NCBI GenBank assembly: GCA_905178155.1
Contig: CAJINV010000013.1
Coordinates: forward strand, 114,344 to 178,343
Origin: Amoebophrya sp. A120
Taxonomy: Eukaryota > Protista > Dinoflagellata
Direction of reading: 5' to 3'
Length of the DNA stretch: 64,000 bases
Under the pieces are notes generated by a model. That model searched no databases. It saw only the letters and a list, made by a program, of their open reading frames with translations, and was not told where the DNA came from. The position numbers and the translations under genes were made by a program. This document shows positions 2,345-64,000 of this stretch, one piece after another. Positions within the stretch are counted from its first letter, which is position 1. Every line of letters begins with the position of its first letter.

Positions 2345-3237
2345 TCACATGTATATGAATATGATAGAGCGGTGCGGGCGTCCATGTTTTGGTACCATTT
2401 CCCCTGCCAGAGTCTGAAAGACCTGACTTACATTCTGTCCCGGGCGTAACAAACTTTCAATAGCCTTTGTAACGTTCGACACGTTCTGTCTGTTTCCAGC
2501 CGCACTATCCGCCTCTTTCAGCGCTTCGAATTCAGCAGAGCTTGACAACAAAGCTTTCACCTTATCTTTCAAGTGCACCTTGATTGCAGTTTTTAGATGC
2601 GGCATGAGTCCGTCCGATACCGCGACTTTCGCCAGAACTTGCACACCTTCGTTGATGACCACTTTAAAAGCGGTACGGGCCACGACTTTTACGCCCTCCG
2701 TTAAGGTCCGTTTGCTCAACTCTACAGTGCCCTTGACCACAGCGTTCGCAACTCGGGCCGCTTCTTTCAGCACGCCCACTCCGGCGGTGACCAGGCTCAA
2801 CACCAGACTTACCGCTTTTTCCGCGCCCCAGCGACCCCAGTCGAAAGACCGATTGATCAAGATATCCTTGACCGCTGTGATTATATCGCTCACGCCCTCT
2901 GCCACAAGGCCCACACCGAAGTTGGCTGCGGCGCCCAGGGTAAAAACAGCAAGAGCCGCACCTCCAATCATCTGCGTCACCCCTATAATAATCAACGCTG
3001 CGAAGGCGCCCCGGTCAAACGGAGGACACACCTCGAACTCGGGCGCTCCAATTAACCCCCACTTTTTATGCATTTTCGAAACTGCTTCAAACTCAGAGTG
3101 GTCCTGGTCTGGCCCGACAAAATACCTGAAGCCATCTTTTTGTGTAATGTCGAGAACTCGCTTTAACCCGAGTTCCTGGTTGTTCTCCCGAGCCCAACGG
3201 AGCAGCCCCAAGACTCTTTTCGATTGCGCGGTTCCTG
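2345..3237 (-). CDS. SecA-like gene exon with hydrophobic Gly/Ala-rich helices
   Basis: AALIIIGVTQMIGGAALAVFTLGAAANFGVGLVAEGVSDII...FDWGRW; boundaries approximate. Confidence 0.75.
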
Positions 3238-42690: not shown

Positions 42691-44051
42691 TTTTGCATGT
42701 GCGTTCTATTCAGGAGCCAGAAGATACACCGCCTTTTGAGGCAATACCGTTCAAATCAATGTTGACAAGAGCTGCAGCCGTGGCACTAGGCAACAATGGA
42801 TTACAAATACGAGTAAGTACTATCTTAAAGCCGACGACCCACAAAAAAGTAGCTGGTGAAAAGATTTTCCATTTTCTTTCCTTAGGAGTCAAAAATGAAA
42901 CAAGGGAACGAGTGTGGATCAATCATGTCTGATTATGCTCGAAAGGCTTAGCATGAATGCAAATTTCATCTCCATGGAGCCCTTTTCCGGGACAGTTCAT
43001 GATCATTCTCCATGGCGCCCTTTTCTCACTCCTGCCAGAACGCGTGAAAGTAGATCTCGTGGTAGTCAAACAAGATCACTCAACCACGACTAAAAGTGAT
43101 ATATAAATGCCCTAAATGTCATGATGTTTTCTAGGTTTTCCCGAAGCCTCAATAGGTCACGTTTTCATAATTTATCAGCTTATTGTCATGCGTAAACGAC
43201 TGCACCGCATCAAGAGCCTTTGCGTCTTCGCCTCAAGCAACTTCGGACACAGGAGCCTGCCTTAGTTTCAGAACCACAAGAGACACCCAGGGCGCTCTTT
43301 ATCTTTTTTGTCATCCGGTCTTCTTCATGAAAGAAAATGAATCTGCGACAGAAATCCAAAGTAGAAATGGATGGACTGATGACACTTTCGAAAAAGATCC
43401 AGAACAACAGATCGAGCAGGCACACGCCTTTCCCCTGACGGTCGATCCACTGCGAAGTCGGGGAGGAATCTCCGGGCCCTGCGGTCCGGAAGTGGGGGGC
43501 AGGCGACACATTCTAGTTTACTAGCCGCCGCAATATTGGCCACGGAATCAAGGTGGGAAATCGAGCAAAGACGAAGCCATTTCGACAGTTCGTTTCATTT
43601 CAGTTTTCTCCTTCGCATCAGAATTATCCACGTGCACAACTTGCGTTCAAATCAATTTTTCTGTAGCTTCGTCTTGTTCTCTATCCTGTTAAAGGAAAAC
43701 CATCATACAAGAATTGCGATGTCATGGAAACTGCCATCGGCTCAACAGAGTCTATCATTCACCAAGTCCATGCTTTTTTGCCGTTGAACGCTTATCTTAC
43801 TCATATTTCGATTGAAGTGCCAGTGCCTCACTACCCTTTACCAACGCAAAGTCAAAGATTGCAGGAAGCCGGTTGCTGCGTAGTTGTCAGCAATGAGAAC
43901 GTTCGTCCAACCAGCTCTGGTCTGCTCATTCGAGGTCAAATCGCACATCAACGGCCACGATTTTAGAATTATTCGAGAAACCGCTTCTGCAAGTTGTATT
44001 TTTCTCCCAGACTTAGATCTCGCAGTGGCAGTGGACGTGCGAAATGTGCTC

Positions 44052-47000
44052 TTAGGCGCGCGAAGAAAGACGCGCCTCTGCCGTACTTAGCAACGTCGCT
44101 TTCTCGGGCGTTTTGAATGATTCAGGAAGTCGCAATCGCAGAAACCGTTCCGGGGGACTGTACTTCTTGCTCGTCTGCCAGGTCACTTCCGGCGCGGCGC
44201 TCTTCCGGCTTCGCTCGTACATGCACCATGCGCCAGCATCGCATGGTGGGCATCTTCTGCGTGCGAGCTCCGGACAGTTCATTAAAGCGAAACCCACTAA
44301 ATTTCCTATTTCCAGCGGCTCGCCACACAGGTTCAAGAACGCATCTTGGACATTAAGCGAGGCCCGAACGGCTTTCGGAAAGAGGTAGTACAAGTCTACA
44401 CCAGCATCGGTTTCGCGCAGCGCTGCAAGTGCGTACTGCTCTGCGTCCTCTTGATCGGAGTAGAAAGGCGAATTCTCATCCTCCAGGTTCATGTTGAAAA
44501 ACAAATCGGCGCAAAACATCGGGTTTTCGGATTTGATTCCCGCTAAAATGACGTCCCGGTCCAGGTTGCGCCTACGCCGAGTGACGGTTTCCACGTAGAA
44601 CTCTCGCTGGACAAAAGGATCGCTTCGCATCACCTGTGGGATTTCATCCAGACCCTTTGGCACTTTGCCGAGGTAAACCAAACCAACAGAGTAGCGCAGT
44701 TCCGGCAAGGTCAGGTGCACAATCGAGGGAACATCAGCAACTTGAGGATGAATGTGCTCGTGGTTCGCTACAGCAAGGCGGAGCGCGGCTTCGAGCAGTT
44801 CCGAGTCGTTGCACGGATTGTCAATTGTATAAGGCCAGTATGGTTTAAGGTGGCGCTTGTCTGCGTAGGGTGCCGTGGTCGGCTCATCCAACTGCGCCGA
44901 GTGCGACAAAAACATATCCTTGACCAGGTGGCTATGGACAAGAAGGAGACCCACGTTCCCCATGGTTTTCTGTAATTTGTCTCGCGCATAATGCGCTGAG
45001 TGCTGTCCTCTCTGTCATACAAAATTATATTAAATGTCAATACATAGGTAGAACAAGATATCTGGCACGCGCTCTGTGGGAGATTTCACATTCATTCGGC
45101 AGAGCTTGGAAGTTTGACGAAAAGCGGGCTGCTGCATATGCTACACCCATCAAAAATGCGATCAGAATATCATGTCGAGATCGCAAAGAATCGATACACA
45201 ACAAGGATGCGCACAGACCACGAAAATATCTATTTTCACAAATGTCGGGAAAGTTAAGCCTTCGCTTCTTTTCATACTCAGGGTCACTTTGCAGCGTTTC
45301 CGGTGCGTAGTGCAACAAACCGCCCGACTTCATCGCTATCTTCACGAAGTGTCTGTCGCTTCGGAAGGCCGGTGGGAGGAACTCGAGGATTTTTCCGTCC
45401 AGCTGCAGTACTTTCTCTGCAATGCCAGGGTAGTCTGCCATCTCCGAAGAAAGAAATTTCAAGAGCGACGGGCACACGAGTAGTGCCCGCAAAGACAGAT
45501 CCGGCCTTGCCTGTCCCTGCAGCAAGATGTCCTGCACACCTTCTTTGTCAGCATTCCAAAATACTTCGGCACATGTGTCCTCCATGAGTTGGACTACGAA
45601 TTCAGGATCTTGGCGAAGGTTGGTTCCGGCAAAAAGGAGGGCGTCATGATTTTGTGCAACTGCGGCTCTTACAATTTCCTTGTTTTGGCGAAGCCGCGGG
45701 CTCGCATGTTCGAGGGCTAGTCCATCAAGTTGTACGCAACGACGCACTACTTCTTCTGAGTCACGAACTCGATGCTGCGAAGGCGATTCGTACTGCAAGA
45801 CCAAGGCTGAAAGCTCTTCTGGAACACTGCCGTATTCCTCTTCCTGAACGTCATCAAAGCGTGCTGCTAGACTAGGAAGCGTGAAGGGGTCCCACTCACC
45901 GAAGTTGAGTGGTTCTATGCTGTTGGGGTAGTAGTGGTCCTGTCGGTAGCATACTGCATTACATACGTGCTCACCGTCACCGCAGAAGTCACTTATTTGA
46001 ATGTAACGCTGCATCAAGCATGCTTGCCTTCGTATGGTTTCATCGCGCTCGTGATAGCAAATCCGCTTGCCCTTGGCCTTGTTTTTCAGCAGCGCCAGTG
46101 AGCAGGACGAGCACTTATTTTTGATGCGCGGGACGACATCGTCAACTGCATTTGTGGTCTTGAGTGGTTCCGAGCTGCGGCTCTGAGGTTGAGTTCCGGC
46201 TAGCATAGATGTACTTCTCGGCAATTGGATGTGCCAGTCCGTACGCAGCATCGGACTGTGGCCGTCCAAAAGGTCCTGCAGGAGGGCTTGATCGCATCGG
46301 AAGTCGTCATTGGTCACAAATCGAAGTGCGTATGGGTTTTCGCGGACGGCGTCGGCGACTATGGGTTTGTCGACAAGCTCAGGAACACAGTACTTGAGTG
46401 CAAGACCGTTTGACCGGACTGCGGTCCGTAAGAGCTCCTTGGTCTGATATTCAGTGTATGCAGTTGCCGCCTTGCGTCATTTTCTCTCGTGCAGGAGTCC
46501 ACTTGCGTGCCCAAAGCCAAAGCCGGTCGCAACGTCACTTCATATCCGTGCTTTTTTGCATTTTTCTGGAAAATACGCGTATACATACTGCAATAAATAA
46601 AAACTTTCTGCTTCGGCAAGCATAAATTCCTAGCTTTGATGTCTGGCACACGCATGCTGGGCTCCAGCTGCGAGATGCATGGCTATGGCTTTTTCATAAT
46701 GAGTTGAAAAACTTAAGAGCTGGAACTCCGTCTTTCTGGGCCGCGGCCATGGCAAGCTCGGTGGAGTTTCGATGTTGTTCGGGGACGTAACGCAGGACCC
46801 AAGGTTTGTGCGAGATGGCCGTTCGAATGACATCATGATGCTCCTGCAGCTCGCTGCGGAGATATTTGTACGCCCAACCATTTTGATTGATCGCCGATAG
46901 AGCAATATCCAAGTACTGGAGTGAGGAACGGATCGGCACGCTTGCAAACCGAAGGGACCGCCAGTCCTTTCTGACAGCAACTTCAACTACCTCTGCATCG

Positions 47001-48329
47001 TTGCGAAGGGTCGGTGATGCGTATCGAAGAGCAAGGCTATTGATGTTGCACGCGAGTAGTGTAAGCGGCTTGCTTTCGCGAAACAGGGCTTCACTGTCTC
47101 CCATCTCGATCCGCTTGGCATTTGATGATTCGTACCAGAGGAGCGACGCTTCCACTGTCAGTTTCACGAGCTCTTCACGAAACTCCCAATCTAAAGAGCC
47201 GAAAGTCAAATCTTCGCCAAAATGTGGATACATGTCTTGGATGCTGTCTCCGACCGAAAAACTCCCCCTTCATACTGTAATCCTAGAAATGGAATGTTTT
47301 CTTTGTAATTAAACACAAAAGTTACATTCTTTTTTTAGATAGAAGAACCTTGTCGACCAATCGATTCACTCGTTATAGGGAATCTCTGAGATAAGATGTC
47401 GTCATACATCAGCAGAAGTCTACTTGATGATGATGCAAACCTCAAGTTGCAAGGGGAGAGATTTTAGCTTCGGATTTGAAAGGGGAGTTCCTCCGCGTGG
47501 ATATTTTTTCAACCAGGCATATGCCGCCTAGCTGAAACCTACGGCAACAACATCCACCATCAAAAAAATTATTATCGGCGTCGTCCGGAAGATCGTAATC
47601 ATCCCAGGTATCATCTTCAGCTTCGCTATCAGCTACAACATCTCCGTCGTCAACAGGGTAGTTGAACTCGTCAACATGTTTCTTTCGTAAGAAACGCAGG
47701 TCCCGCGCAGAGATGCGCTGCAGATGGGCGCGAGCGAATTCGAGCGCTTGCTGAGCACGACCATCGAAGACGACCTGAATTTCGCAAGCTTTCTCCTCGT
47801 CAGCGGTCTCGCCGGTTGGAATCGGGAAGCGTCCATCCCATACTATGCACCTTTCTTCGTCCTGCAAAAATGTAGAAGTGCTGCTCGAACATATGGTTTT
47901 CTTTAGACTCTTTGTCTCATCCTCAGCTTTCTGGCTACGCCCATGGGGCCCGACAGACATAGTCGCCACTGTAATTGGCTCGGATGCTTTTGTTTCTTCA
48001 TCACAGCGTCCCGAAAAGCTGGAGCGAACTTTTTCGACGATTTCTGTTGGCAAAACAACTCCTTGACCAGCCAATGAAATTTCTGCACCGGCGGTTCGAC
48101 CTGCAATTAGGTGGGTCTTCACTTCGCGGAGCAAAATCTGTTTTTCGTCTTTTGGCACGATGATAGTTCCCAATGTGTTTCCGCCAAGATCGCTCACTTT
48201 CACTTGCTTGCAGGAAGCGTTTTCTAATACCTTCGCAGCTGGCTCTGTTCCGTGGGGAAAAAAAATGTTTTCTGTCCGCAACCGCAGGTGAGCGTCCGCG
48301 CCGAGGAGTGCGTTAACAGCAGGAGCCAT
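44052..48329 (-). CDS. DUF4116-repeat protein, copy A (4 exons)
   Basis: LALRYASPTLRNDAEVVEVAV and GLALEHASPRLRQNKEIVRAAV repeats; N-terminal ubiquitin-like-looking VSDLGG...LREVK segment; intron stems at 47247-47503, 46457-46698, 44933-45276. Confidence 0.85.
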
Positions 48330-49700
48330 GCTGATGAGACTTTCTCTATCGGATGTGTGAAAGTAAAAGTCTTATGTGCGTGCGGATTTGCTATTGCAGC
48401 GACTGGCAAGTACGCAACGAGGTCACTGTCTGATGGGGTGTTGCGTTTCTGATTTGAACATTGAGTCTTTGCTTCGCGACATTTGAATGCGATGCATCGG
48501 CGACTCATATAGAGACACTCTTGCCAAAAAAAGTTATTTGTTGCACCAACGTGCAAGATGCTCATATTTATCTAGGCAGAAGAACGTGACTTGATCATCG
48601 AAGATGCGCTGGACGTCGACGTCCTCTCGTAATTTGAAAGTATCTTTTGAAGGTCACACTTTTCACTACCCAATGGTCCAAGTACACACCCGACCAGTTG
48701 TTTTTATATTTTTTTATGATCAATGATAAATTTCTAAAGCATACCAGGCAACTTCTAGAATTCTAATTTATTGCAGAAGCGTGATTGACGAGGCACTTTT
48801 ACGATGTTCAGGCACTGAAACCGCACGAGAAAACTTCAACACAAAATTCAACACTTTCCGCAAAAAAAGACAAAATTTGACTTTCAATAAGACCGAACAA
48901 AGAGATCAGCACCGCCCCAACTACAAAATGACATGGTTTATTGTTAGAACACTAATACCACCATGTAGGGCGGTGTACACCCTACAGCACTAGTATCCAC
49001 GTAACTGTTGCATTGGGGAAAGGAACAAGTTCATCATCATCATCACATCATCATCTCTCGATTTGCATCGCTCTTCGCTCGGGATGGAGTGATTTCAGAT
49101 CGTGGATTTCAGGCGGTTTGCATCGTGTCATCAGATCTACATGGTGATTTGATCTGCATTACATTTATCTATCCAGCTGAAAGATGTCAAGCCGACGCGC
49201 TACGGAATTAAGGTGGGAACTCGAGCAAAGACAAAACCATTTCGACGGTTCGTTTTATTTGAATTTTCTTGTCTTGCATCAGAATTATCCACGTGCACAA
49301 CTTGCGTTCAAATTTCTTCGTAGCTTCGTCTTGTTCTCATCTATCCTCTTGAATAAAACCATCATACAAGAATTGCGATGTTACTGAAACTGCCATCGGC
49401 TGAACGGAAATAAATCTATCATCCACAATGGTCACACTTTTTTACCGTTGAGCGCTTATCTTACTCTTGTTTCGATCGAACCAGTGCAAGCGCCTCACTA
49501 CCCTTTCTTGTGCAACGCAAAGTCAAAGATTGCAAGAAGACGGTTGCTATGTGCTTGTCAGTAATGAGCACGTTCGTCCAACAAGCCCTGGTCTGCTCAT
49601 TTGAGCTCAAATCGCACATCTTGTTCGAGGTGCCTAAACCCCTTCGGCAGGTATTTTCCCCCCGGACTTAGATCCCGTAGTGGACATGCTAAATGGGCTC

Positions 49701-52700
49701 TTAGGTAGCTCGGGAAGAAAGACGTGCCTCTGCCGTGCTCAGCAGCGTCGCTTTCTCGGGCGTTTTGAATGCATCAGGGAGTCGGAATCGCAGAAATTGT
49801 TCCGGAGCCGAAAACCGTGACAGGCGCGCGGCACTCGTCTGCCAGGTCACTTCCGGCGCAACGCTCTTGCGGCTTCGCTCGTATTTGGACCATGCGCCAG
49901 CATCGCATGGTGGGCATCTTCTGCGTGCGAGCTCCGGACAGTTCATTAAAGCGAAACCCACTAAATTGCCTATTTCCAGTGGCTCGCCACACAGGTTCAA
50001 GAAGGCATCTTGGACTTCAAGCGAGGCCCGAACGGCTTTCGGAAACAGGTAGTATAAGTCTACACCGGAATCCGTCTCGCGTAGCGCTGCGAGTGCGTAT
50101 TGCTCTGCGTCCTCCTGAATGGAATAGAAAGGCGAATTCTCGTCTTCCAGATTCATGTGGAAAAACAAAACGGCGGAAAACAAAGGGTTTTCGGATTTGA
50201 TTCCTGCTAAAATGACGCTGCGCTCCAGGTTGCGCCCACTCCGAGTGACGGTTTCCACGTAGAACTCTCGCTGGACAAAGGGATCGCTTCGCATCACCTG
50301 CGGTATTTCATCCAGGCTCTTTGGTACCTTACCCGGATGACGCAGTCCAAGAGAGGTGCGCAGGTCCCGCAGGGTTAGGCGTACAATCGCCGGTACATCA
50401 GCAACTAGCGGATGAATGTGCTCGTGGTTCGCTACAGCAAGGCGGAGCGCAGCTTCTAGCAGTTCCGAGTCGTCGCATGGGTTGTCGTTTGTATACGGCC
50501 AATAAGTCTTGAGGAAGCGCTTGTCTTCGTAGGGTGGTGTGGTCGGCTCATCCAACTGCGCCGAGTGCGACAGAAACATCTCTCTGATCAGATGGTTATG
50601 GACAAGAAGAAGATCCACATTCCCCATGGTTTATTTATACAAATACACGTAATTTGTCACGCTGCTGTCGCGGATAGCGCGATCAATGCCATTTCTGTAT
50701 GTCAAATATCGAATGTCAATAGAAGAATCCTGGAACCTGCGCTCTGTCCTGGATTTTTTTCACATTCCAGCGCGAGCGCAAGGCGTGTTGACGCAAAGCG
50801 GGCTGCCACATATGCTCCACCCACCACAGAAGTGATAAGAAGACCAAGCCGTGATACTAGGGATCAAAACAAGAAATGCACAACATTCATCAACAAATGT
50901 ATCTTAACACGTGTCGGGAAGGTGAAGGCTTCGCTTCCTTTCATACGCAGCATCGCTTTGCAGCGTCTCTGGTGCGTGGTGCAACAAACCGCCTGATTTC
51001 ATCGCTATCTTGACAAGGTTTCTGTCGCTTCGAAAGGCCGGTGGGAGGAACTCGAGCATTTTTCCGTCCAGCCGTAGTACTTCTTCTACAACGCCAGGGT
51101 AGTTTGGCATGTCAGAGGAAAGAAATTTCAGAAGCGAAGGATACACCATTAATGCACGTGAAGACAGATCCGGTCTTGCCTGTCCTTGCAGCAACATGTC
51201 CCGCACACTTTCGTCGTCGGCATTCCAAAATACTTCGGCACATGTGTCCTCCATTAGCTGGACTATGAAGTCAGGATCTTTGCGAAGAGCGCTCCCGGCA
51301 AAAAGGAGGGCGTCATGATTGTGCGCAACTGCGCTTCTTACGATCTCCCGGTTTTGACGAAGCCGTGGACTCGCATGTTCGAGGGCTAGTCCATCAAGTT
51401 GTACGCAACGAGACACTACTTCTTCCGAGTCACGAATTCGATCCTGCAAAGGCGATTCATACTGCAACACCAAGGCGGACAGCTCTTCCGGAACACTGTC
51501 GTACTCCTCTTCTTGAACGTCATCAAAGCGGGCTGCTAGACCTGGAAGCGTGAAAGGTTCCCACACACCGACGTCGATCGGGTTTTCGCAATGTGGGTAG
51601 TGGTGGTGCTGTAGGCAGCATACTGCATTACAGACGTGTTCGCCGTCACCGCAGAAGTCACTTATTTGAATGTAGCGCTGCATCAAGCATGCTTGTCTGC
51701 GGACGGTTTCATCACGTTTCTGATAGCGAAGCCGCTTGTTCCCGTCCTTGTACTTTAGCAGCGCCAGCGAGCAAGACGAGCACTGGTGTGTGCGGGAGGT
51801 CCTTCTGATGCGCGCCGGGGCGACATTGTCAATCGCAATCGTTGTGAGTGATCCCGGGCAGTGGCTCTGAGATGGAGTTCTGGCTGCCATACGTTTACCT
51901 ATCGGTACTTGAATCTGCCAGTCGGTGCGCAGCATCGGGCTGGCGCCATCGAAAAGTTCTCGCAGGAGGGCTTGGTCGCATCGGAAGTCCTTCTTGGTCA
52001 CAAATCGAAGTGCGTACGGGTTTTCGCGCAGTGCATCGGCGACAATGTGTTTGTCAACAAGCTCAGGATCGCAGTACTTGAGTGCAAGACCGTTGGATTG
52101 AACTGCAGTCCGTAGCAGGTCCCTGGTCTGATTCTCTGAGTATGCCGTTGTCGCCAACATGCGTCTTTTCCTCTCGTGCCTGCAGAATGCTGGCCCAAAC
52201 CCAAAGCAACGCTAGTTCATAAAGGTGCCTATTGTTATGTTGGAAAATACGCAGATAACACACGTACTGCAATACAAAAACGTGTGCTGTCTGCCATGCA
52301 TAACTCCCTAGCTTTGGTGTCCGGGACACGAATGATGCTGCGTGGAGCTGAGAGATGCATGCGTATGGCATTTTCATAATGAGTTGAAGAACTTAAGAGC
52401 TGGAACTCCGTCTTTTTGGGCCGCTGCCATGGCCAGCTCGATAGATTCTCGATAGGCTTCGGCGACGTAACGCAGGACCCATGGCTTGTGCGCGATGGCC
52501 AGTCGAATGAGATCATGATGTTCGTGGAGCTCACCACGGAGATATTTGTACGCCCAACCATTTTGCTCAATCGCCGAGAGAGCAATATCGAAATACTCTA
52601 GCGAGGAACGAATCGGCACGGTCGCGAAGCGAAGGGACCGCCAGTCTTTTCTAACGGCAACCTCGACCACCTCTGGATCGTTGCGGAGCGTCGGCGATGC

Positions 52701-53977
52701 GTATCGAAGCGCAAGGCCACTGATGTTGCAGGCGAGTATTGTGAGGGGCTTGCTTTGTCGAAACAGGGCTTGACTGTCTCCCATCTCGATCCGCTTGGCA
52801 TTTGATGACTCGTACCAGAGAAGCGACGACTCCACAGTCAATTTCACGAGTTCTTCACGAAACTCCCAATCTAAAGATCCAAAGATCACATCTTCGCCAA
52901 AATGTGGATAGATATCTCGGATGTTGTCTCCACACAAAAAACTAACCTTTCCAAGCATAGTCCTGGAACCCATACCCATTTATTCTAGATGTAGTGAAAA
53001 ATAAGTGTCATTGAAGCAGGCTGTCCCCGTATGCACGAATCTGCAATGGGAACGCGATCGGTCTGCAATCTTCAAGATGGTATTTAGTCATACATCAACA
53101 GCAGGCTTGATGATGATGCAAATCTTCAGTCACAGGGCTTGAAAGGGAAGTTTCTCCTCGCGGATATTTTTTCAACTAGGCACATGTCACCCAACTCAAA
53201 TCTACGACAACAACATCCACCGTCAAAAACCTCGTTATGCGCGTCGTCCGGAAGATAGTATTCATCCCAGGTATCATTTTCAGCTTCGCTATCATACACG
53301 ATATCTCCGGCGTCAACAGGGTAATGGAACTCATGATCGTTACTTTTTCGCAAGAAACTCAGGCTCCTTTCAGAGATGCGCTGCAAATGAGTGCGAGCAA
53401 AGTCGAGGGCTTGGTGAGCGCGACCGTCGAAGGCAACCTGAATTTCGCAATCTTTCTCTTCGTCAGCTATCTCGCCGATCGGAATCGGGAAGCGTCCATC
53501 CCATACTATGCATCTTTCTTCGTCCTGGAAAAATGTAGAAGTGCTGCTCGAGCTCATGGCTTTCTTTACATAGTTGGTCTCACCCTCAGCTTTCTTGCCA
53601 CGCCCATGGGGCCCGACAGATGTAGTCGCCACTGTAATTGGCTCGGATGCTTCTTCATCACAGCGTCCCGAAAAGCTGGAGCGAACTTTTTCGATGATTT
53701 CTGTTGGCAAAACAACTCCTTGACCAGCCAATGACTTTTGTGCACCGCTTCGAACTGCAACCAGGTGGGTCTTCACTTCGCGGAGCAAAATCTGTTTTTC
53801 GTCTCTTGGCACAATAATAGTTCCCAATGTGTTTCCGCCAAGATCGCTCACTTTCACTTGCTTGCAGGAAGCGTTTTCTAATACCTTCGCAGCTGGCTCT
53901 GTGTCGTGGGGAAAAAAAACGTTTCCTGTTCGCAGGTGAGCGTCGGCACCGAGGAATGCGTGAACACTAGGAGCCAT
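49701..53977 (-). CDS. DUF4116-repeat protein, copy B (4 exons)
   Basis: Close paralog of A including flanks; intron stems at 52927-53166, 52141-52378, 50597-50945. Confidence 0.85.
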
Positions 53978-54630
53978 GCTGATAAGCCTTTTTCTATAGG
54001 ATGTGTGAAAGTAAAAGTCAATTATGTGTGTGAGCATTTGCTTCTGTAGTGACTAGCACAGCATACGGAGCGAGGCCACTGATGGGGTGTTACGTTTCTG
54101 ATCTGCGCATTGAGTTTTTGCCTCGCCTCACGACATTTGAATGGGATGCATCGGCGAGTCATATGCAAAGGCTCTTGCCAAAAAAGTTATGTGTTGCACC
54201 AAGGTGCTGGGTGCTCATTTTTGTCTAGGCAGGAGATTGTGACTTGATCATCGAAGATGCGCTGGACGTCGACGTCCTTTAATTTGGAAGCATCTTTTGA
54301 AGATCACACTTTTCACTACCCAATGGTCCAAGTACGCACCCGATTTATATTCTATTTTTATATTTATGATCAATGACAAATTTCTAGAGCTTACCGGGCA
54401 ACCAGAATTTTACTTTATTTCAGAAGCGTGATTGACGCGGCAACTTTACGATGTTCGGGCACTGAAACCGCACGAGAAAGCTTCAACACAAAATTCAACA
54501 ATTTCCGCAACAAAAAACAAAAGTTGGCTTTCAACAAGACCGAACAAACAGATCAGCACCGCCCAAACTACAAAAGGACATGGTTTATCTATTCAGCTGA
54601 AAGATGTCAAGTTTGAGTTTGAGCACTAGA

Positions 54631-54716
54631 TTCGAGGATTTTTCTGTCCAGCTGCAGTACTTTTTCTGCAATATCAGGGTAGTTGTCTGCCATCTCCGAG
54701 GAAAGAAATTTCAAGA
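54631..54716 (-). pseudogene. ~85-bp orphan fragment of a DUF4116 exon
   Basis: Closely matches 45383-45463 of copy A. Confidence 0.7.
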
Positions 54717-55078
54717 ATCAGCTTTTGAGAGGCCAACGAAAAAAAAAAACTGCTCTACTACCTCTGTGTACCGCACCCATAGTTGCGTAGGCTTCAATAC
54801 CTCTGTGTATCGCACCCACATTTGCGCAGTTTTGGTAACTATTTTGATGCCTCTCCGAGGCAATATTACACATTGTGATTCACCGATGCTTTGCTTGGCA
54901 GCTTGCGACCCAGTCGCAGAAGATCGCTCAAAATGATCCAAAACGTCTTGTCCAAGATGTGACCGCAGGAGGATCTCATTTACGCACAGGCCTCCGTCGC
55001 GCAGCCAAATTCGAGACCCACTAAGTACTGTGCTCAAGTCTCACTCACACAATTATCTATAATACTATTGGAAAAATT

Positions 55079-56118
55079 CTGGCGGGCGGGGGGGTGCAAG
55101 GTGCTAATAGAAATGCTGCTAGTAGAATCGTGCTAGCAGAAAAATGAGTACTAGTAGAAATCCTGCTAGTGTTTTTAGCGTGACAAAAACGCGAAGAAGG
55201 TACTAGTGACAGGCGCCACTAGTGAAGGCGCCCACTAGTAGAGGCACTAGTGACAAAAAGCCCGACTTTGGGGAAAGCGAAAACACTAGTGAGGAAACCC
55301 GCCAACGCAGCTCGGGCGAGAATCCCCGATGGAAACACAATAGACCAGCAAAAGCTCGCCCGGGCCGCCTGTCAAGGGGCCTCGGGCAGGGCACGGCGCC
55401 TGGGGCTGCGGTCTCCCCTTGCCGAACACTCTCTCGTAGATGTCTTCAGGCCGGGCTTCGTCGCATGCCGATGGGGCTTTTCGGCCTCGCCGGGGCTGCC
55501 CGATTTTGCATGCCCCGCGCCCTTTGGGCGACCGGGCGTGCTTCCGGTTCCTTTACGGCTCGCCTCCTCGGCCTATTTGGGCGCTTTTCCTTTCGTTTCC
55601 AGGGCTTTATTTTCCCTCTTCCCCGGGCGCGGGCTTAGGCCTGTCTACTTTTTTTGCGGCTGTCAGGTTTCTCACGAGAACCACCCGCAACGCCCGCCCT
55701 GCCTTCCCGCTGCCGCCCTGCCTGCTCTGCTTTGTCTTTGCTTGGCGCTAGCCGTGTTTCCTGTTTTTCGGCCGTCGGCGCGCTCTTTTCGTTCTCTTTC
55801 CTGTGATTAACCTCCCGGGCCTTCGAAAAGGGTCTTGGCACGCTCTCCGCAGGACCTGTTTGTGGCGGCTCGGACAGGGGCTAGGCTGTGCGCTCTCTAG
55901 CGCCCCCTGTGCCTCGCGGCCTTCTCTCTACCTGCACTTCTTTCGTTCCCGCCGACCGAGGGAGGTACGCCAGGGGCGCTGCTGTTTCTCTTTTTCGCCT
56001 GTTGTGCCAGCATGGTTTGAGGCTGTAGCGCTAGGCGCTACCCTGTAGGAACTTTCTCCCTCGCTCCCCCTTGCACCCCCTCGTCGCCGGGCCGGCGGGC
56101 GCGGAGCGCACGCCCGTT
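55079..56118 (+). mobile_element. Non-autonomous Helentron-like element
   Basis: Asymmetric subterminal IR (55079-55101 versus 56069-56090), 3' GC hairpin CGGGCG...CGCCCG (56096-56116), TT at both ends, internal CTAGT repeats, no credible ORF. Confidence 0.6.
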
Positions 56119-56821
56119 CTAGATAAGTACTGTGTTCAAGTCTTACTCACCGCGAGAGAGGCATTGTATCTAGATCTGTTCATCGGCAGCACACATGATT
56201 TCAGTCATTGGAGATTTTTCATTTATGTAGCAACAACGCCACTGCTGGCGCTCGTCATATCTTTGCAAAACTTCCTCATTTCGAAAGACGCCTGTAATCA
56301 GAGGGGGCGCTTCTCGTGTGAAGCCAGCCGGCTCAGGAATGAACATAGCCGACGCGCCACGAACCGAGCAAAGGCGAAGCGATACACTTACATGGTTCGT
56401 TCCTATTTTGTCCTCGTATCTTCGTCATCATCCACATGCACTTTCTTTGCAATCAATCTTAGTTTCAGGGTCGGATGGAAATCATCATACACGTGTGAGC
56501 ACAGCCTTCAAAAGTCCTTCTTGATGCGTAATGACTAGAAAAGAAATGGCAGCACGTGCCAAGGTCGGGGTATATATAATGATCCACATGAGCTTGTTTC
56601 TTGTTGCGTAAAACTATTCTAAAACCATGCCAAGGTAAGATTATCTATCAGAAGGTATGTGTGGCGACTTTGGTACTGAAGTGTTCGGGCGTACTGTCAT
56701 GTGCAGGCGTACTGTCAGCACCACCAGTCACGGTTGCAGTCAGTCCCTCCTGTTCTGCTCGAGTAATGCGTCAACATGACCGACTGCGAGCACTGTTTTT
56801 GTCGAAGCCAAAAGCAGACTG

Positions 56822-59800
56822 CTAAGCACCTAGACCAAGTAAGAAGTAATAGAAATCGCGTCGCTCTTTTGCATTCTGGACCTGAGCTGCCTTCTCTGGG
56901 TTCATGTGCGTCCATGGAATGCGCAACCTGAGACACCTTGTCATAGGACTGTATTCGCTGCTAGTGTGCCAATTTATTTCAGGCACGCTGCATTTACGAT
57001 TCCTCTCAAAGATAGACCAATCTCCGGCGTAGTTGTTGCGCCCGTTCATACGGACAAGTTCGGTACAATGCATCAAACACAAACCCATCATATTTCCGAT
57101 TTCTAGTGGTTCGCCACACAAGTTGAGAAAGGCATCTTGAATCCGAGTCGAGTGGCGAACGGCTTTTGGAAACAGAAAATAGACTTCAGCTCCCCAGTCG
57201 GTTTCCTCTAGGCTTGTTAGCGCGTACTGTTCGGCATCTTCCCTCGACGAGTAGAAAACTGAGGCCTTATCGTCGATGTTCATGTGGACGAAAAACTCAA
57301 TGCAGAACGCCTGTGTCCGCTTCAGTCCGGTGATGATCGTGGAACTGGGTAGATTTTGTCGGCTCCTTCTCACCGCTTCGACGTAAAACTCACACTGCAC
57401 TATCGGATCGTTTTGCAACCAAGCAGGAACTTCATCAAGGCCGTTCAACGTTTTGCCCGGATTGTCCCGACCAACGAACGTGGCACGGAATTGCGGCAAG
57501 GCCGTGTAAAGCAGGGACGGAAAACGGTGCAAAAACGGCCGAACATCTTCTTGAGTCGCAAGCCCAAGTCGCATTGCAGCCTGCAGCAAGGCTGGATGGT
57601 CGGTGCAAATGCTATCATTCTTGATTTGGTCCCAAGGTGCTTTGACGGCGTAGCACAGCTCCCACGGGCAGGAGCCGGGTGTGTCAAGCTTCGCGGCGTG
57701 AGCGAGAATCATGCGCGCTGCGAGTTTGCTATGCACAATAGAGTGCTGGCCTCCTTATGTCTTTCGTCCAAATCATCTGGGTGCTTTTGTCTCTTAATTT
57801 TTTGTCATGATGCCCGACCGAAAAAAACGCTACCAAAGTTGTTCAGTACAAAATTCTTTTCGTCGCAGCTATGCATGGCCATGAATTTTTTATGCTAGTA
57901 CATGATCGGCCCTCGTCATTATGTTTGCAAGTAAAGACGAGAAAGACCCATTGGAAATAAAAAAACAGTTGAGCAGAACAAGGGGCCAGCTCTCTGTGCA
58001 TATTCACGGTCAGTTCGCAGGGATTGATGCGCGTCGTTCAAAGAGCCTCCCGACGCGATTGCGATAGCCACGCAATCTCGGTTCCCTTGGATTGCACCGT
58101 CTGCAAAGGCAAGGACCGTTCCATCAATCTTCAAAATTGGCAGCACAATCGCGGGGTCACCCTTTGATGTGTTTGGGGCAAACTGCAATAAAGACGGATA
58201 CGCTCGCAAAGCTCGCATGTGAAAATCGCACATACTCTTCGTCTGAAGTAACACTTTCTGCACATTTGTCGCGTCTGCGTTCCAGAATGCTTCCCTGCAA
58301 GCTCCTTCCATCAACTCAAGTACAAAGTCTGGGTCGGTGCGGAGATTTTCAGCCGCAAACAGCAGGGCATCGTGATTCTGAGAGACTGCCTCCTTCACGA
58401 TTGCACGGTTTCCACGAAGTCGCACGCTCGCGTGCTCGAGACATAATCCATCAAGCTGAACACAGCGCCGAACGATCTCTTCGTGATCACAAACAGCTTC
58501 CGACGGCGATTTTTGCAGTATGAGGCACGGAAGGTCCTCTGGCACATCGTCAAATTCCTCTTCTTGGAGATTTGCGAAGCGCTCCTCCAATACCGGACTG
58601 TGCTCACCCTCCGCGGTGGCCGGATAAATATGCTTCTGCTTGAAGCACACAGCATTGCAGATATGCTCGCCGTCTCCGCAAAAATCAGCAACGTGGATGT
58701 AGCGCTGCATAAGGCAAGCCGTTCGCCTGAGTGGCTCATAACGCACGTGCCAACTGCGAACTCGCGTATGGTAATGGTCTTTTATTGCGTCCACACGACA
58801 AGAGGAACAAAGGTAACGCTTGGATGACAGAGAATTACTAGTGGAGGCCACAGTCAAGCAGTTTCTGTCGCTTTCAGCTCCTTCCTCGCAAACACCAGAA
58901 CCACATTTCATGGCTGTCCCATCAACTTCAACATCGCTGCTCCAGGGCGAAGCGTAGATCGGTTTTCGACTATATGTTCCCGCTTCAGGAGGCACGGCCG
59001 TGACGCTCCTACACATGTTTGCGTCGTCGCTATTTAGTTTTGGCGGAGGTGTGGGAAGGTGCCAGTTTGTTCGCAAAACGGGACTTGGACCGCGAAACAT
59101 TTTCAGCAGTACGTCCACGTTATTGCGTATTTCGGCGTCCTGCACAAATCTTAGTGCGTACGGGTTCTGATGCAGGGCGATATCAACTATGGACGTGTCG
59201 ACTAGCTCTTGCGCACAATACTTTAGCGCGAGGCCATTAGACCGCACAGCGGTTTTCACCAGCTCCTTGGTTTGCGAGTGCGGGTTGGAGAACTTCAGCG
59301 CAGGGACACCGTCCACCATGGCTGCTGCAGTCACTACTTCTCGACAGTGTCGGTTCGGTTCGGGAGCATAACGTAGGACCCACGGTTTGTGCTCGACCGC
59401 CAGGCGAATCAGCTCCGTACAATGTCTAAGGTCTCCACACAGATACCTGTACGCCCAGCCGTTCTGCCGGATCGCGCACCGAGCGATTTCCGCATAAGTC
59501 AATGACTAACGAAGCTCGGCACTTGCAAAACGCAATGAGCGCCAATCAGCTTGCACTGCAACCTTGACGACTTCAGGATCTTGACGAAGTGCTGGAATAG
59601 CGTAGCGAAGTGCCAACCCATTGATCTCGCATGCTATGGTGGTAAGTTCTTTGCTCGTGCGAAAGAGAGATGAACTGCTCCCCATCTGAATGCGCTTCGG
59701 ATTCGAGGAATGCCTCCAGCGCATGGAAGCCTCCACTGAAAGCTTGGACAACTCCTCCCGGAACTCGAAATCTCCTGTGACGGGTTTCGGATCCACGCCG

Positions 59801-60642
59801 TGAGGGTACATTTCTTTAATTTTCAAGAGCAGACATCCTGTGCCATCATCATGGCAACAATCCCCGTGGTAGCTGTTTTGCGCCGCGAGTTCAAAATTGT
59901 CTGCGGCGTCGCCTCCCACGTAGCCATCCTCAGAGGCAATAGTGAAGTCTGAAACGGGTGGGTTTGCAAAAAGAGCTTGATTCCGGAGAAATTCCATGTC
60001 TTCATCGGATATGCGGAACAACCTCTCTTTCGCGTATTCAAGCGCCGCCTGTGCTCGGTCATCAAAAACCACCTGTATTTCTGTCAATTGGTCCTGGTCA
60101 TCGAAGCTCACTGGAATGTCGAAACGTCCGTCCCAGACGAGCCAAGTAGCCTTTCGCGATGAAGCTCTGTCTTCGTTGTCGGAGGCCGGGTCAAGTGGTT
60201 CTGCGAGCACGGACTCACCGGCGCCAGAAATGTGTTCACTACAAGCTTGAGGTCGTGCAACAGGGTCGGGCTCCTCCACTTGCGGCTGCGCCAGATCTTT
60301 GTCCTCATGAGCTGGAGATACCGGCGACCGATCCTTCTCATCAGCACCTTCCGAACTACCCGCAACAGTCCCTGCCACGCCTTTACGCTTGCGCATGACT
60401 TTTTGCTGGACCAATGCTCCTATTCCGACAAGCGAGCTCCGATCTGGCAAAACACTGGCAAGATGTTTTTTCACGTGCCGCAGCTGCACGTAATCAGTCG
60501 CAGATGGAACAAAAAGCTTGCTGATAGTGTTACCCGCAAGATTGTTGATTCTCAGGCACTTTGTACCTCCCGCAGTGCCAGAACCCTCATCCCACCGATC
60601 TGCCTCTGCCGGACCCGGAGGTTGTTGTTTCTTAGCGCGCAT
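56822..60642 (-). CDS. DUF4116-repeat protein, copy C (1 intron; in-frame TAG at 59506-59508)
   Basis: Colinear with A/B and continuous across their introns 1 and 2; intron stem at 57730-58002. Confidence 0.8.
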
Positions 60643-61679
60643 TGTCGGGCTCTGACCTCTGACACGAATGAAAACAATCAGGCGATTGATTGCCCTTGAG
60701 AAAAAAGCTCGCAACTGCCTAGCTATTGCAGAATAAAGTGGGAAAGCGCAGATGTACAAACCTGAACGTCGCTAAAAGTGGCTTATTTATCGGCGACCTT
60801 TTGTTGCAACATCATCTCCGTTCTCAAACAAAGATAGAGCAGCACGGTGGCTGAGTGTAAGTAATAATGGTGAGCGGAATATTGCTCGACTGGACGTTTT
60901 TGGGGAGAAAACTTGTTTGCAAGACACATGATGATGAATAAAACGCCTGATCACGATGTGGATGCGGGCGAGATAAATGCACAAGGATCCTTTGCTTGGG
61001 CAAAGAAATTAAGTGTTAATTATTAATAATGGATTAGGGCCTGTGCGGCGGGGAGATAGATCATGTAAAACATTGCATAACACGGGCTACAAAGAGCTGC
61101 GCATGATCAAAGCCAAACTGTAGCTTCTAGATCTATTCACCGGCCGCGGGGGCATGATCTCAGATGTTCGACATTTTTCATTCTCGATGCTTCCTTACCT
61201 CGAGAAATGACTCCAACCAGAGGACGCGCTCCGGGTGTGAAGCCTGCCATACCTCGGGCATGCACCTAGCCGACGCGCCACGGAATCAGGGTGGGAAATC
61301 GAGCAAAGACGAAACCATCTCGACAGTTTGTTTCATTTCAGTTTTCTTCCCTCGCATCAGAATTATCCACGTGCACAACTTGCGTTCAAATTTGTTCGTA
61401 GCTTCGTCTTGTTCTCTATCCTGTTGAAGTAAAACTATTATACAAGAATTGCGACTATAGAAACTGCCATCCGCTGAATGGAAATCTATCATCATCAAAG
61501 TTCTCGTTCGTATGCCGTAAGAAGCTGGTCTGAATCAGAGTTCTTGTCCTATATCGTGCAGCGCAAAGTCAAAGCTTGGTGGAAACAGATTGGACTGTAG
61601 TTTCGGCACAAGGCTGTCTGTGCCCGAACTGCGTCCATAATTCGGAACTTGCTCGTTTCTTCTTCCGTCGTCCGTGTGC

Positions 61680-64000
61680 CTAAGGAAATGGAGACGCCAA
61701 CACCCTGGCTCGACGCGCCTCCGCCGTATTGAGAAGGCAAGCATTTTCAGGATTCGTGTGAGAAGCCGGCAAGCGCAGTCGCAAAAAGTTCTCCGTTGAG
61801 CTCACGAGCTCAGTTGTCTTCCAACTGGCTTCTGGCACCGAGCTTTTCCGGCTTCGTTCGAACTTGGACCATGCTCCGTTGTAGACGCTGCACCTGTTCC
61901 TAACAAGCTCTGTGCAGTGGTGGAGGGCAAACCCGAGCATGTTTCCGACTTCAAGTGGTTCACCTACAAGATGAAAAAAAGCATGCTGCACTGCTGCTGA
62001 ATCGCGGACAAGCTTTGGCAACAAGAAGTATACTTCCGCACCCCAGCTGGTGTCACGAAGAGTTACGAGTGCATACTTTTCTGCGTCTGCAGATGATGAG
62101 AAAAAGACGGACGATTCATCCTCCGTTTCCATGTACAGGAAAAAAGTCAGACAGAATGCTTGCGTTGTCCTCAGCCCGGTCAGAATCGTGTCGTGGTCTA
62201 GATTCCGGCCACGTTGAGTGACGGCGTCAACATAGAACTCACACTGCACCAAAGGGTCGCTCTGCATCTCAGAGGGAATATCAGCCAGGTGCTGGGGGTA
62301 TTCGACTAGGGGCAAAAGTCCACGTGCACGGCGCAACTTTGTCAGTGTGTCGTGCACGACTGACGGATTATGCACTAGCTCTGCTGGAATGTCCTTGTAG
62401 CTTGCAAGCCCGAGTTGCAAGGCAGAACGAAGCAGGACATCATCGTAGCAGGCGTCTTCCTTACTAGCCATGGCGTGCTCCCAATAGGGGGTCGGGTGAA
62501 AGTACAACTCGTTCCTTTTGACCATCCAGCCATCACACCGCACAGGCGTAAAAGGGTCGGCAAGCTTTGCAGCTTGTGATATGATTTGTTCCCGCAACAA
62601 GCAGTTATGCAAAACAAAAATAAAGAAACCTATCTAACCCCACCATTCAAAATTGTGCTTGCTTGTTTTGCTTGCGGGCATAGCGAAGCGCTCGCGCTTC
62701 TAACGTGGACGGTCGAAGCGTTCGCACCTCACAGGCTGCGAATCATGCCTGGAATAGCCTTTTTTTAGAAACGAATCGCACACAAAGACCAGCGATCTGC
62801 ATTGCAAATGAAGACCAGCGCTTGACCTGTCATTTCTTTTAGCGCAGCACGGAGGCCAAGCATTCTCTTGATTCAATTTCGCGAAGCGATGTGACCAAGT
62901 GCAAGTCGTAGAAGAAAAGAGGGGAAAAATAGATACTGCCATGCATAATCGGGGTCTTTTTCGAGATATTTGTCGGCGTGCCAAAGGAATCCACCAGCGT
63001 TCAGCGCAACACGCACAAGGTCTTTGTCGCGCTTCATTGACGAGTCCACGAACTGAAGGGCTGTGCCGTCGATCGCTAGCAACGCTGCAACGTTCGACCG
63101 ATCGCGCTTGAAGTCCTCACTGGCGAACTCCAGTAGACCGGGATACGCCTTCAGAGCTCGGAGGGACAGGCTTCTCTCTCCTTTTTCCGACAGCAAAACG
63201 TCCTGCACTGCCAACTTGTCGGCATTCCAGAACACATTTGCGCAGGCTTCTTCCATTAATTCCACAACGAAAATCGGGTCCTCACGGAGATGTTGCGCAG
63301 CGAAGAGCAGGGCGTCGTGATTCTGCGCGACTGCCTCCTTGACAAGCCCTCGATCGCCTCTGATGCGGGAACTCGCGTGCTCGAGGCACAGCCCGTCCAA
63401 ACGAACGCAAGAGAGAACAATACAGTCGTCGTCGCAGACATCCTTATTGCAGAAGTCTCGAAGAACCAGGACACCGAGGTCCTCCGGAACCGAGCCAAAG
63501 GACTCTTCCTGCTGCTGCTCAAAATGTTGCGCGAGAAACTGGTTGGGCTCCGGCTCAAATTCGACATATATGTGCCCTAGCTCGTGGCAAAGCGCATTGC
63601 ATACGTGCTCCCCATCTCCACAGAAGTCGGGAACGTGAATATAGCGCTGCATTAGGCACGTGTGGCGACGCCTTGTTTGATTGTGCTTGTAGCAACTGCT
63701 AGAGCGGCTGGTGTCGTTAAAACGGAGTTGCGACAAGAGGCAACTCGAGCAAGAGCAAGGTCGCACCTGCGTCGCGATACCGCAAGGAGATTTCGTATGA
63801 ATCTGGTTGTTCCTCGTGTTGCGCACCGTATGGCCGCTCGCGCCGTCCAGAAGAAGAAGATCTTCGTGCTGTTCCAGAGAGCAGCCAACATGGGCAGTAT
63901 CGCAATCCGTGCTCATGCAGCGTTGGCGTTCGCACATCCCGCTTCCAAAGCGTTCATCTGGCAGACACTGTCCTGGAAGAAGATGCCAATCGGTCCGCAG
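61680..64000 (-). CDS. DUF4116-repeat protein, copy D (5' part outside the window)
   Basis: Shares CLMQRYIHVPDFCGDGEHVCNA and GEPLEVGN...ERSRKS motifs; intron stem at 62606-62947. Confidence 0.85.

What the first reader, a model, noticed from the sequence alone, without database searches (positions are those of the whole stretch)
44933..62947. Orthologous intron in four paralogs keeps its terminal stem despite sequence turnover
Seen: the last intron sits at the same position in copies A-D, but the arms differ. A/B have TATGAAA(A/G)GAAG vs TATGGACAAGAAG; C has TATGCACAGAGAGCTGGCC vs TATGCACAATAGAGTGCTGGCC; D has UAUGCAUGGCAG, pairing 11/12 with its 3' end only when G-U pairs on the transcribed strand are allowed. 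The +5 removal yields DUF4116-like junctions (LQSDP[D/E]LVK, LRTDRELAAR, LEKDPDLLRE). Inference: pairing is maintained at RNA level long after transposition, so the stem is the splicing signal.
Basis: partly seen in the sequence, partly recalled or inferred. Interest (0 to 1): 0.8.

Follow-up and report, generated by a model that had tools for sequence, protein, structure and literature searches.

The report
Old transposon intron keeps paired ends
In a marine parasite of algae (likely Amoebophrya A120), one intron of an already published transposon-like type, lacking the usual splice signals, sits at the same spot in five long-diverged copies of a gene and has kept its roughly twelve complementary end bases while its middle became unrecognisable, which likely means those paired ends help tell the cell where to cut.

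Summary
The intron is real. It sits at the same codon in paralogs A-D and in a fifth copy E, which encodes an annotated Amoebrophrya A120 protein. One likely-RNA contig of E lacks the element plus 5 nt, cut 1 nt before TATG and 4 nt after CATA; no register gives GT-AG. It belongs to the published TAT...ATA introner class (Farhat 2021), and this scan reported the same cut on other DNA of this genome. Orthology holds: arm positions 4-12 share 10-12 of 18 nt between lineages (at most 9 in 42 unrelated pairs), although silent sites are saturated, intron bodies are unalignable and the target duplication has decayed. 'Turnover' is overstated. The arms are conserved, not rewritten: 0 of 12 pairs show compensatory double changes. 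The G-U bias is only a trend (7-8 G-U versus 3 A-C, p 0.11-0.17). Stems of B and E, and of intron 2, fold no better than random. Best reading (0.55): the ends are under long-term selection for splicing, likely as a short paired ruler plus a TA/A motif. Pairing versus linear motif is unresolved.

The parts
44929..45277 (-). Intron 3 of copy A (predicted -1/+4 cut; arms TATG at 45276, CATA ending 44933; ends GT..CA)
   Evidence: register inferred from copy E
50593..50946 (-). Intron 3 of copy B (arms 50945..50597; ends GT..CA)
57726..58003 (-). Intron 3 of copy C (arms 58002..57730; strongest stem; ends AT..AA)
62602..62948 (-). Intron 3 of copy D (arms 62947..62606; 11 of 12 pairs, three G-U; ends TT..TG)
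44055..44928 (-). Last exon of copy A, about 291 codons, no Pfam match; only 2 relatives found in a 1.84-billion-protein search
45278..46452 (-). Exon 3 of copy A, DUF4116 repeats
46453..46699 (-). Predicted intron 2 of copy A (TATG..CATA, weak stem; absent from C; splicing not shown)
   Evidence: contrary contig
46700..47242 (-). Exon 2 of copy A, DUF4116 repeats
47243..47504 (-). Predicted intron 1 of copy A (TAT..AGA, long G-U-rich stem; absent from C)
47505..48329 (-). Exon 1 of copy A (start codon assumed)
49704..53977 (-). Copy B of the gene; predicted intron 2 at 52137-52379 and intron 1 at 52923-53167 (start codon assumed)
56900..60642 (-). Copy C of the gene; only intron 3; one in-frame TAG at 59506-59508 (start codon assumed)
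61683..64000 (-). Copy D of the gene (5' part runs off the window)

Best explanation
The intron stands at one position in five copies of a DUF4116-repeat gene, is missing from a likely RNA contig of copy E at one base before TATG and four after CATA, and keeps its end bases across saturated divergence, likely because a short end-to-end RNA helix together with the TA/A end motif serves as the ruler for splicing. Inferred history: one TAT...ATA miniature transposon with a 5-bp target duplication inserted once, before the duplications. The duplication and the body then drifted beyond recognition. A single change in the first dozen bases of either arm breaks a pair and would impair removal, so the arms froze, tolerating mainly A-to-G changes opposite U and added bulges. 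The cutting machinery is not identified. The likeliest is a relaxed spliceosome in which end pairing stands in for U1, which Farhat et al. did not detect (inferred, untested).
For: Same codon and phase in A-D. Fourfold sites between A/B, C and D are 0.23-0.34 identical and the intron bodies show no similarity (p 0.13-0.83; B-D 0.025, uncorrected, among 28 comparisons). Yet arm positions 4-12 share 10-12 of 18 nt, against mean 5.3 and maximum 9 in 42 unrelated pairs, and 8 of 18 are invariant over three lineages (null 1.2, p 2e-5). A versus B: 25 of 26 terminal nt identical against 193 of 308 in the body (p 1.5e-4). All 8 invariant bases belong to pairs 4, 6, 8, 9 and 11, which pair in 5 of 5 copies; positions 8 and 11 vary only A/G opposite an invariant U. 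80% of cells pair in register versus 38-60% when slid. Four of the 8 invariant bases are third codon positions in the flanking frames. Unrelated introns have different inner arms, so no universal inner motif explains the freeze. Target duplication decayed to 0-3 of 5. No register gives GT-AG. The spliced contig matches E in 26 of 27 listed differences and fixes -1/+4; the joint is absent from 34 contigs of the DNA-like run X4. Intron 1 has a long stem that is much better on the sense strand (-33.5/-27.4/-24.0 versus -23.0/-18.7/-19.1). In Euglena, end pairing was shown genetically to be needed (PMC12501133, abstract and passages).
Against: 0 of 12 pairs have a compensatory double change and the covariation score is below all 500 shuffles. 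G-U versus A-C is 7-8 to 3 (p 0.11-0.17), and 3 to 3 in seven other introns. Anchored stems of B and E (p 0.16-0.24) and of intron 2 (p 0.18-0.86) are no better than random intron segments; D passes at 14 nt (p 0.04) but not at 20 nt (p 0.26). Whole-intron folds of E and D do not put the terminal helix in the minimum-energy structure, and alignment folds of A/B/E miss it. A/B/E carry an A-C mismatch at pair 5, and intron 1 an A-G mismatch at pair 2. Splicing is shown for E only, by one contig of depth 2.9 from a run whose RNA status is a guess. A, B and E are not independent.
Confidence: 0.55

Rival explanations
1. The ends are read as linear sequence, not as a helix. A relaxed spliceosome would recognise N-UAU at the 5' end and an adenosine 7 nt before the 3' end as branch point, helped by a purine-rich 5' arm and a U-rich 3' arm. 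The complementarity would be a relic of the transposon's inverted repeat, and G-U pairs a by-product of that strand asymmetry.
For: No covariation. Stems are weak in B, E and intron 2. Intron 1 breaks pair 2 (AGA for ATA) but keeps the A at -7. The 5' arms hold 6-9 purines of 9 and the 3' arms 6-8 pyrimidines of 9. The branch-A reading comes from earlier AI notes on this genome; the A at -7 in the other 12 of 14 rows is there by selection on ATA and is not evidence.
Against: Six candidate introns of other genes have 2-6 purines and 2-6 pyrimidines and unrelated inner arms, so a linear inner motif is not general. The invariant bases fall on pairs that hold in all five copies.
Confidence: 0.28
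2. The arms are kept alike at DNA level (gene conversion between paralogs, template switching between inverted repeats, or fresh insertion of related elements at the same site), with no selection on the RNA.
For: E is A-like except for a B-like tract over intron 3 (about L001 2590-3190), so whole introns do move between copies. C's stem looks young: about 19 pairs and target duplication 3 of 5.
Against: Conversion would also homogenise the flanks and bodies, which are saturated between A/B, C and D. Template switching would repair toward Watson-Crick pairs, yet the G-U at position 9 is invariant in 5 of 5. Independent insertions would bring fresh target duplications and unrelated arms.
Confidence: 0.1
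3. The arms are conserved because they code for protein: the 5' arm as the tail of an intron-retained product, the 3' arm as the start of a separate downstream frame. Copies A-D may not be spliced here.
For: The frames run some way into the intron from both sides, and A, B and E have an in-frame ATG inside it. No junction was seen for A-D themselves.
Against: Four of 8 invariant bases are third codon positions. C and D have no such in-frame ATG after the last upstream stop. E's contig and its annotated protein are spliced.
Confidence: 0.05

Closest known systems
Introner elements / non-canonical introns of Amoebophrya sp. A120 (Farhat et al. 2021, PMC7789003; read: abstract, passages, sections 11, 12, 16, supplement figure legends)
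   Same: TAT start, 8-20 nt inverted repeats, 3-5 nt direct repeats, non-GT-AG ends, a few hundred nt long, co-oriented genes. Copy E encodes the annotated A120 protein GSA120T00012263001.1. The paper already proposes that the hairpin joins the exon boundaries.
   Different: The paper treats these introns as recent and strain-specific, with variable cut positions, and in the parts read gives no test of selection on the arms. Here one such intron outlasts silent-site saturation, has lost its target duplication, keeps its ends and is cut at -1/+4.
Euglenid nonconventional introns (PMC4770533 passages; PMC12501133 abstract and passages; review PMC11282704 passages)
   Same: Non-canonical ends, likely MITE origin, a terminal stem set off-centre from the cuts, the outermost few pairs best kept while inner pairs gain bulges; pairing shown to be required in Euglena.
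   Different: Euglena has 3 nt before a CDG motif and 5-6 nt after its partner; here 1 nt before TAT and 4 nt after ATA. Homologous euglenid introns show many compensatory changes; this intron shows none. Unrelated lineage, so convergent at most.
DNA-transposon introners of Aureococcus and Micromonas (as described in PMC7789003 section 16 and PMC12130899 passages)
   Same: Terminal inverted repeat plus target duplication; precise removal restores the pre-insertion frame.
   Different: The Aureococcus elements use canonical splice motifs; no register gives GT-AG here.

Membership tests
Amoebophrya A120 introner / non-canonical intron | Host is Amoebophrya A120 | tested here: met
   Copy E translates letter for letter to P0002, named Amoebophrya sp. 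A120 GSA120T00012263001.1; run X4 holds copy A's intron with 0 differences and E-type contigs together. The window's own strain is inferred.
Amoebophrya A120 introner / non-canonical intron | Splice sites other than GT-AG | tested here: met
   None of six registers gives GT-AG in any of five copies; E's cut reads GT..TA.
Amoebophrya A120 introner / non-canonical intron | 8-20 nt terminal inverted repeat starting with TAT | tested here: met
   C has 8 perfect pairs and more beyond; D 11 of 12 with G-U; A/B/E 4+6 pairs with an internal loop, so imperfect.
Amoebophrya A120 introner / non-canonical intron | 3-5 nt direct repeat at the boundaries | tested here: inconclusive
   Decayed to 0-3 of 5 matches in intron 3; the +5 geometry remains. 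Perfect 5-nt repeats flank the elements at 5182-5556 and 37805-38132.
Amoebophrya A120 introner / non-canonical intron | Removed from mRNA | tested here: met
   For copy E only: one contig of run X1 (RNA status a guess) and the annotated protein. Not seen for A-D.
Amoebophrya A120 introner / non-canonical intron | Member of a repeated family with dispersed copies (versus singleton) | not testable with these tools
   No genome is held. No similarity among the 8 intron bodies compared, beyond the A/B/E orthologs.
Euglenid nonconventional intron | N3-CDG ... CH'G-N5-6 end code | tested here: not met
   Ends are N-TATG ... CATA-N4.
Euglenid nonconventional intron | Compensatory changes between homologous introns | tested here: not met
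   0 of 12 pairs in five copies; small sample.
Euglenid nonconventional intron | Pairing required for removal; excised as a full-length circle | not testable with these tools
   Needs reporter mutagenesis and excised-intron sequencing.

The most novel reading that the evidence does not exclude
Amoebophrya's non-GT-AG introns are not just young transposon debris. They are a long-established second splicing code, convergent with Euglena's, in which an end-to-end RNA helix of about 6-12 pairs sets both cuts (-1/+4) with no fixed splice-site dinucleotides, and which has held one intron's ends nearly fixed through more than full saturation of silent sites.
Probability: 0.4. Interest if true: 0.7.

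Novelty: new member of a known kind. Interest (0 to 1): 0.45.

Why it matters
More than 60% of introns in this parasite lack GT-AG ends, and how they are removed is unknown (PMC7789003). A fresh transposon has inverted repeats whether or not splicing uses them, so young elements cannot tell cause from relic. An old intron shared by deeply diverged paralogs can: here the target duplication and body are gone but the ends persist, which points to selection on the ends. That offers a simple genome-wide test (paired versus unpaired positions, G-U versus A-C, in paralog sets) and names the bases to mutate. The evidence here rests on three independent lineages of one intron and does not prove that pairing, rather than sequence, is read.

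Tried and rejected
No whole genome is held for the window or for L001, so copy numbers of the intron bodies could not be counted. The run search listed no holder on record as RNA. Raw RNA runs X6-X8 laid 0 reads, which is no test; X3 laid 0 contigs. A search for longer homologs of the last exon found none; near-length and full HMMER searches found only 2 proteins, both from copy E, so the intron could not be dated against other strains. No Rfam match in 44000-64000. Pfam could not confirm the candidate introns of other genes: 2 of 13 flanking frames matched a family, none on both sides of one intron. Exon-exon pairing beyond the stem appeared in the folds of A, C and D but in different registers; rejected as likely chance. 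The 0/+5 cut was rejected: it gives a stop at intron 2 in A, B and E and does not fit E's contig. Canonical GT-AG registers were rejected. Unconstrained 25-nt duplex energies separated only C and the young element from random. Seven literature searches showed no paper that tests selection or covariation on Amoebophrya intron arms; the library lacks most subscription papers (Roy 2023 Curr Biol was seen only as a citation), and the figures of Farhat's Fig. 3 and S19-S25 were not visible, only their legends.
Full report
Setting. The window is eukaryotic (no prokaryote genome is held). Positions 44055-64000 hold four tandem minus-strand paralogs, A-D, with DUF4116 repeats and a last exon of about 290 codons without a Pfam match. 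A metagenome scan confirmed 1 locus of 377 pattern matches: L001, a fifth copy E about 90% like A. E translates letter for letter to P0002, labelled Amoebophrya sp. A120 GSA120T00012263001.1, whose sequence runs LQSDAA-LIREM across the intron. Run X4 holds A's intron with 0 differences over 461 nt along with E-type contigs. The window is therefore likely A120 or a near-identical strain (inference).

Observation. All quoted arms are in place. The exons on both sides align to the same residue in A-D. Total removals of +2, +5 or +8 keep the frame. Over the window outside 6400-16800, +5 joins two frames of at least 150 codons in 15 of 138 candidate TAT...ATA pairs on the minus strand, against 2, 7, 2 and 8 for +3, +4, +6 and +7, and 0 on the plus strand (the 15 include overlapping pairs and A-D themselves).

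Splicing and register. Raw RNA runs X6-X8 laid no reads (no test). In run X1, whose RNA status is a guess, one 283-nt contig of depth 2.9 skips intron 3; the DNA-like run X4 shows no such joint among 34 laid contigs. X1's letters match E in 26 of the 27 listed differences I compared (B: 20 of 27), and the difference counts agree exactly in 4 of 5 X1 pieces. In E's DNA the base before TATG is G, the one before that is C, the fourth base after CATA is A and the fifth is C. The contig reads C then C at the joint. So the cut is 1 nt before the 5' arm and 4 nt after the 3' arm (-1/+4), with ends GT..TA. The predicted intron 2 agrees in part: 0/+5 gives a stop in A, B and E, and an X2 contig stops matching at 46700, the -2 base, with 4 unaligned letters that were not shown. 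Against this, another X1 contig runs 10 nt into the 3' end of intron 2 without a difference, so intron 2 was unspliced in that molecule or ends elsewhere. No junction was seen for A-D themselves. I noted the -1/+4 reading before seeing that earlier AI notes report it elsewhere in this genome.

Orthology. Fourfold-degenerate sites between A/B, C and D are 0.23-0.34 identical, that is saturated; A versus B is 0.71-0.74. Intron bodies align only within A/B/E. The 5-nt target duplication has decayed to 0-3 of 5, whereas two elements in other genes keep 5 of 5. Yet arm positions 4-12, with TAT and ATA left out, share 10-12 of 18 nt between lineages, against a mean of 5.3 and a maximum of 9 in 42 unrelated pairs; 8 of 18 are invariant in A, C and D (null 1.2, p 2e-5; at most 4 in 35 unrelated triples). 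The unrelated set is intron 2 plus six candidate introns that I picked by score and flanking frame length from the 24 rows; the other rows were overlapping, duplicate, lower-scoring or A-D themselves, and none of the six is confirmed by transcripts. One insertion before the duplications is far likelier than independent insertions.

Constraint. Between A and B, 25 of 26 terminal bases are the same against 193 of 308 in the body (p 1.5e-4); intron 2 gives 23 of 26 against 149 of 202 (p 0.075). Four of the 8 deeply invariant bases are third codon positions in the flanking frames, so coding does not explain them. The ends are under selection; that the selection is for splicing is inferred.

Pairing or sequence? 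In the ungapped 12-pair register 80% of cells pair (38-60% when slid), 6 pairs never vary, 2 vary on one side only and 0 on both. For pairing: every invariant base lies in a pair that holds in 5 of 5 copies, positions 8 and 11 vary only A/G opposite U, and the G-U at position 9 is invariant. Unrelated introns have unrelated inner arms, so no shared inner motif accounts for the freeze. Against: G-U versus A-C is 7:3 or 8:3 (p 0.17, 0.11) and 3:3 in the seven other introns. Sense minus antisense energy over 11 intron groups gives p 0.049, 0.10, 0.042, 0.16 and 0.35 for arms of 12, 16, 20, 25 and 30 nt, a trend only. Against random segments of the same intron, the anchored stem scores p 0.003 in C, 0.04 and 0.26 in D, 0.11 and 0.03 in A, 0.16-0.24 in B and E, and 0.18-0.86 in intron 2. 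Whole-intron folds form the terminal helix in A and C, only in the centroid for D, and not in E. Intron 1 of A/B/E, absent from C, has a long G-U-rich stem far better on the sense strand, but ends in AGA, which breaks pair 2. So at most about 4-6 terminal pairs look near-obligate, and the rest is variable.

Mechanism. Shown: position, arms, conservation, and the cut in E. Inferred: a single MITE-like insertion; selection acting through splicing; a short end-to-end helix plus the TA/A end motif as a ruler (0.55). Machinery unknown. Farhat et al. found most spliceosome parts but no U1 (PMC7789003, passages), which makes a relaxed spliceosome the first candidate. The main rival is linear recognition with a branch A at -7, a reading taken from earlier AI notes (0.28); intron 1 keeps that A while changing its neighbour. 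DNA-level homogenisation (0.10) is real for A/B/E, since E carries a B-like tract over intron 3, but does not fit C and D.

Comparison and novelty. The class is published for this organism, including the idea that the hairpin joins the exon ends (PMC7789003 sections 11, 16). That paper regards non-canonical introns as recent, with 98.6% of position-conserved introns between strains canonical (section 12). Euglenid nonconventional introns are the functional analogue: off-centre terminal stem, compensatory changes (PMC4770533, passages) and a genetic requirement for pairing (PMC12501133, abstract and passages); their end code is not met here. Seven searches showed no test of selection on Amoebophrya intron arms, but figures and subscription papers were out of reach. 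Verdict: a new, unusually old member of a known class, with modest new evidence on an open mechanism; interest 0.45.

Noticed in passing
window 59506-59508 (-): Copy C has one in-frame TAG in an otherwise intact frame: recent pseudogene, assembly error or read-through. An X1 contig matches 56741-56897, just past C's stop codon, with 0 differences.
   Followed up: partly
L001 about 2590-3190: Copy E is A-like except for a B-like tract covering intron 3 and its flanks, and a short mixed tract near 1990-2140; likely gene conversion.
   Followed up: yes
window 47243-47504 and 52923-53167; L001 372-645: Predicted intron 1 ends in AGA instead of ATA and would be missed by TAT...ATA scans; it has a long G-U-rich stem, with A/B differences that mostly keep pairing.
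   Followed up: partly
window 46457-46624 and 52291-52302: Intron 2 holds an inner TATGC start. In A it can pair with the 3' end (about 11 pairs); in B the inner 12-mer equals D's 5' arm. Possibly a nested or older element, or chance.
   Followed up: no
window 46453-46462: An X1 contig of copy E includes the last 10 nt of intron 2, the weakest-stem intron: retained intron, DNA in the run, or another 3' cut.
   Followed up: partly
window 5182-5556 and 37805-38132: Young-looking elements with perfect 5-nt target duplications; the first has 13 perfect pairs.
   Followed up: partly
window 26539-27209, 28407-28814, 31275-31805, 32178-32517, 33065-33578: Further candidate TAT...ATA introns joining long minus-strand frames of unknown genes; not confirmed by transcripts.
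   Followed up: partly
window 6783-16700 (-): One open frame of 3306 codons with endonuclease- and reverse-transcriptase-like motifs by eye (recalled motifs, no scan run); likely a non-LTR retrotransposon.
   Followed up: no
window 3536-5176 and 18407-19525 (-): Two frames with SecA-like helicase domains (PF21090, PF07517), lying on either side of the retrotransposon-like frame; possibly one split gene.
   Followed up: no
window about 54630-54720: A short fragment (85 nt, 91% identical to E) of exon 3 of this gene family lies between copies B and C.
   Followed up: no
intron 3, four bases after CATA, copies A-E: The tails GCCA, ACCA, ACTA, GCAA and ACTG share purine-C-N-purine although they should be free to drift; a possible further signal.
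   Followed up: no
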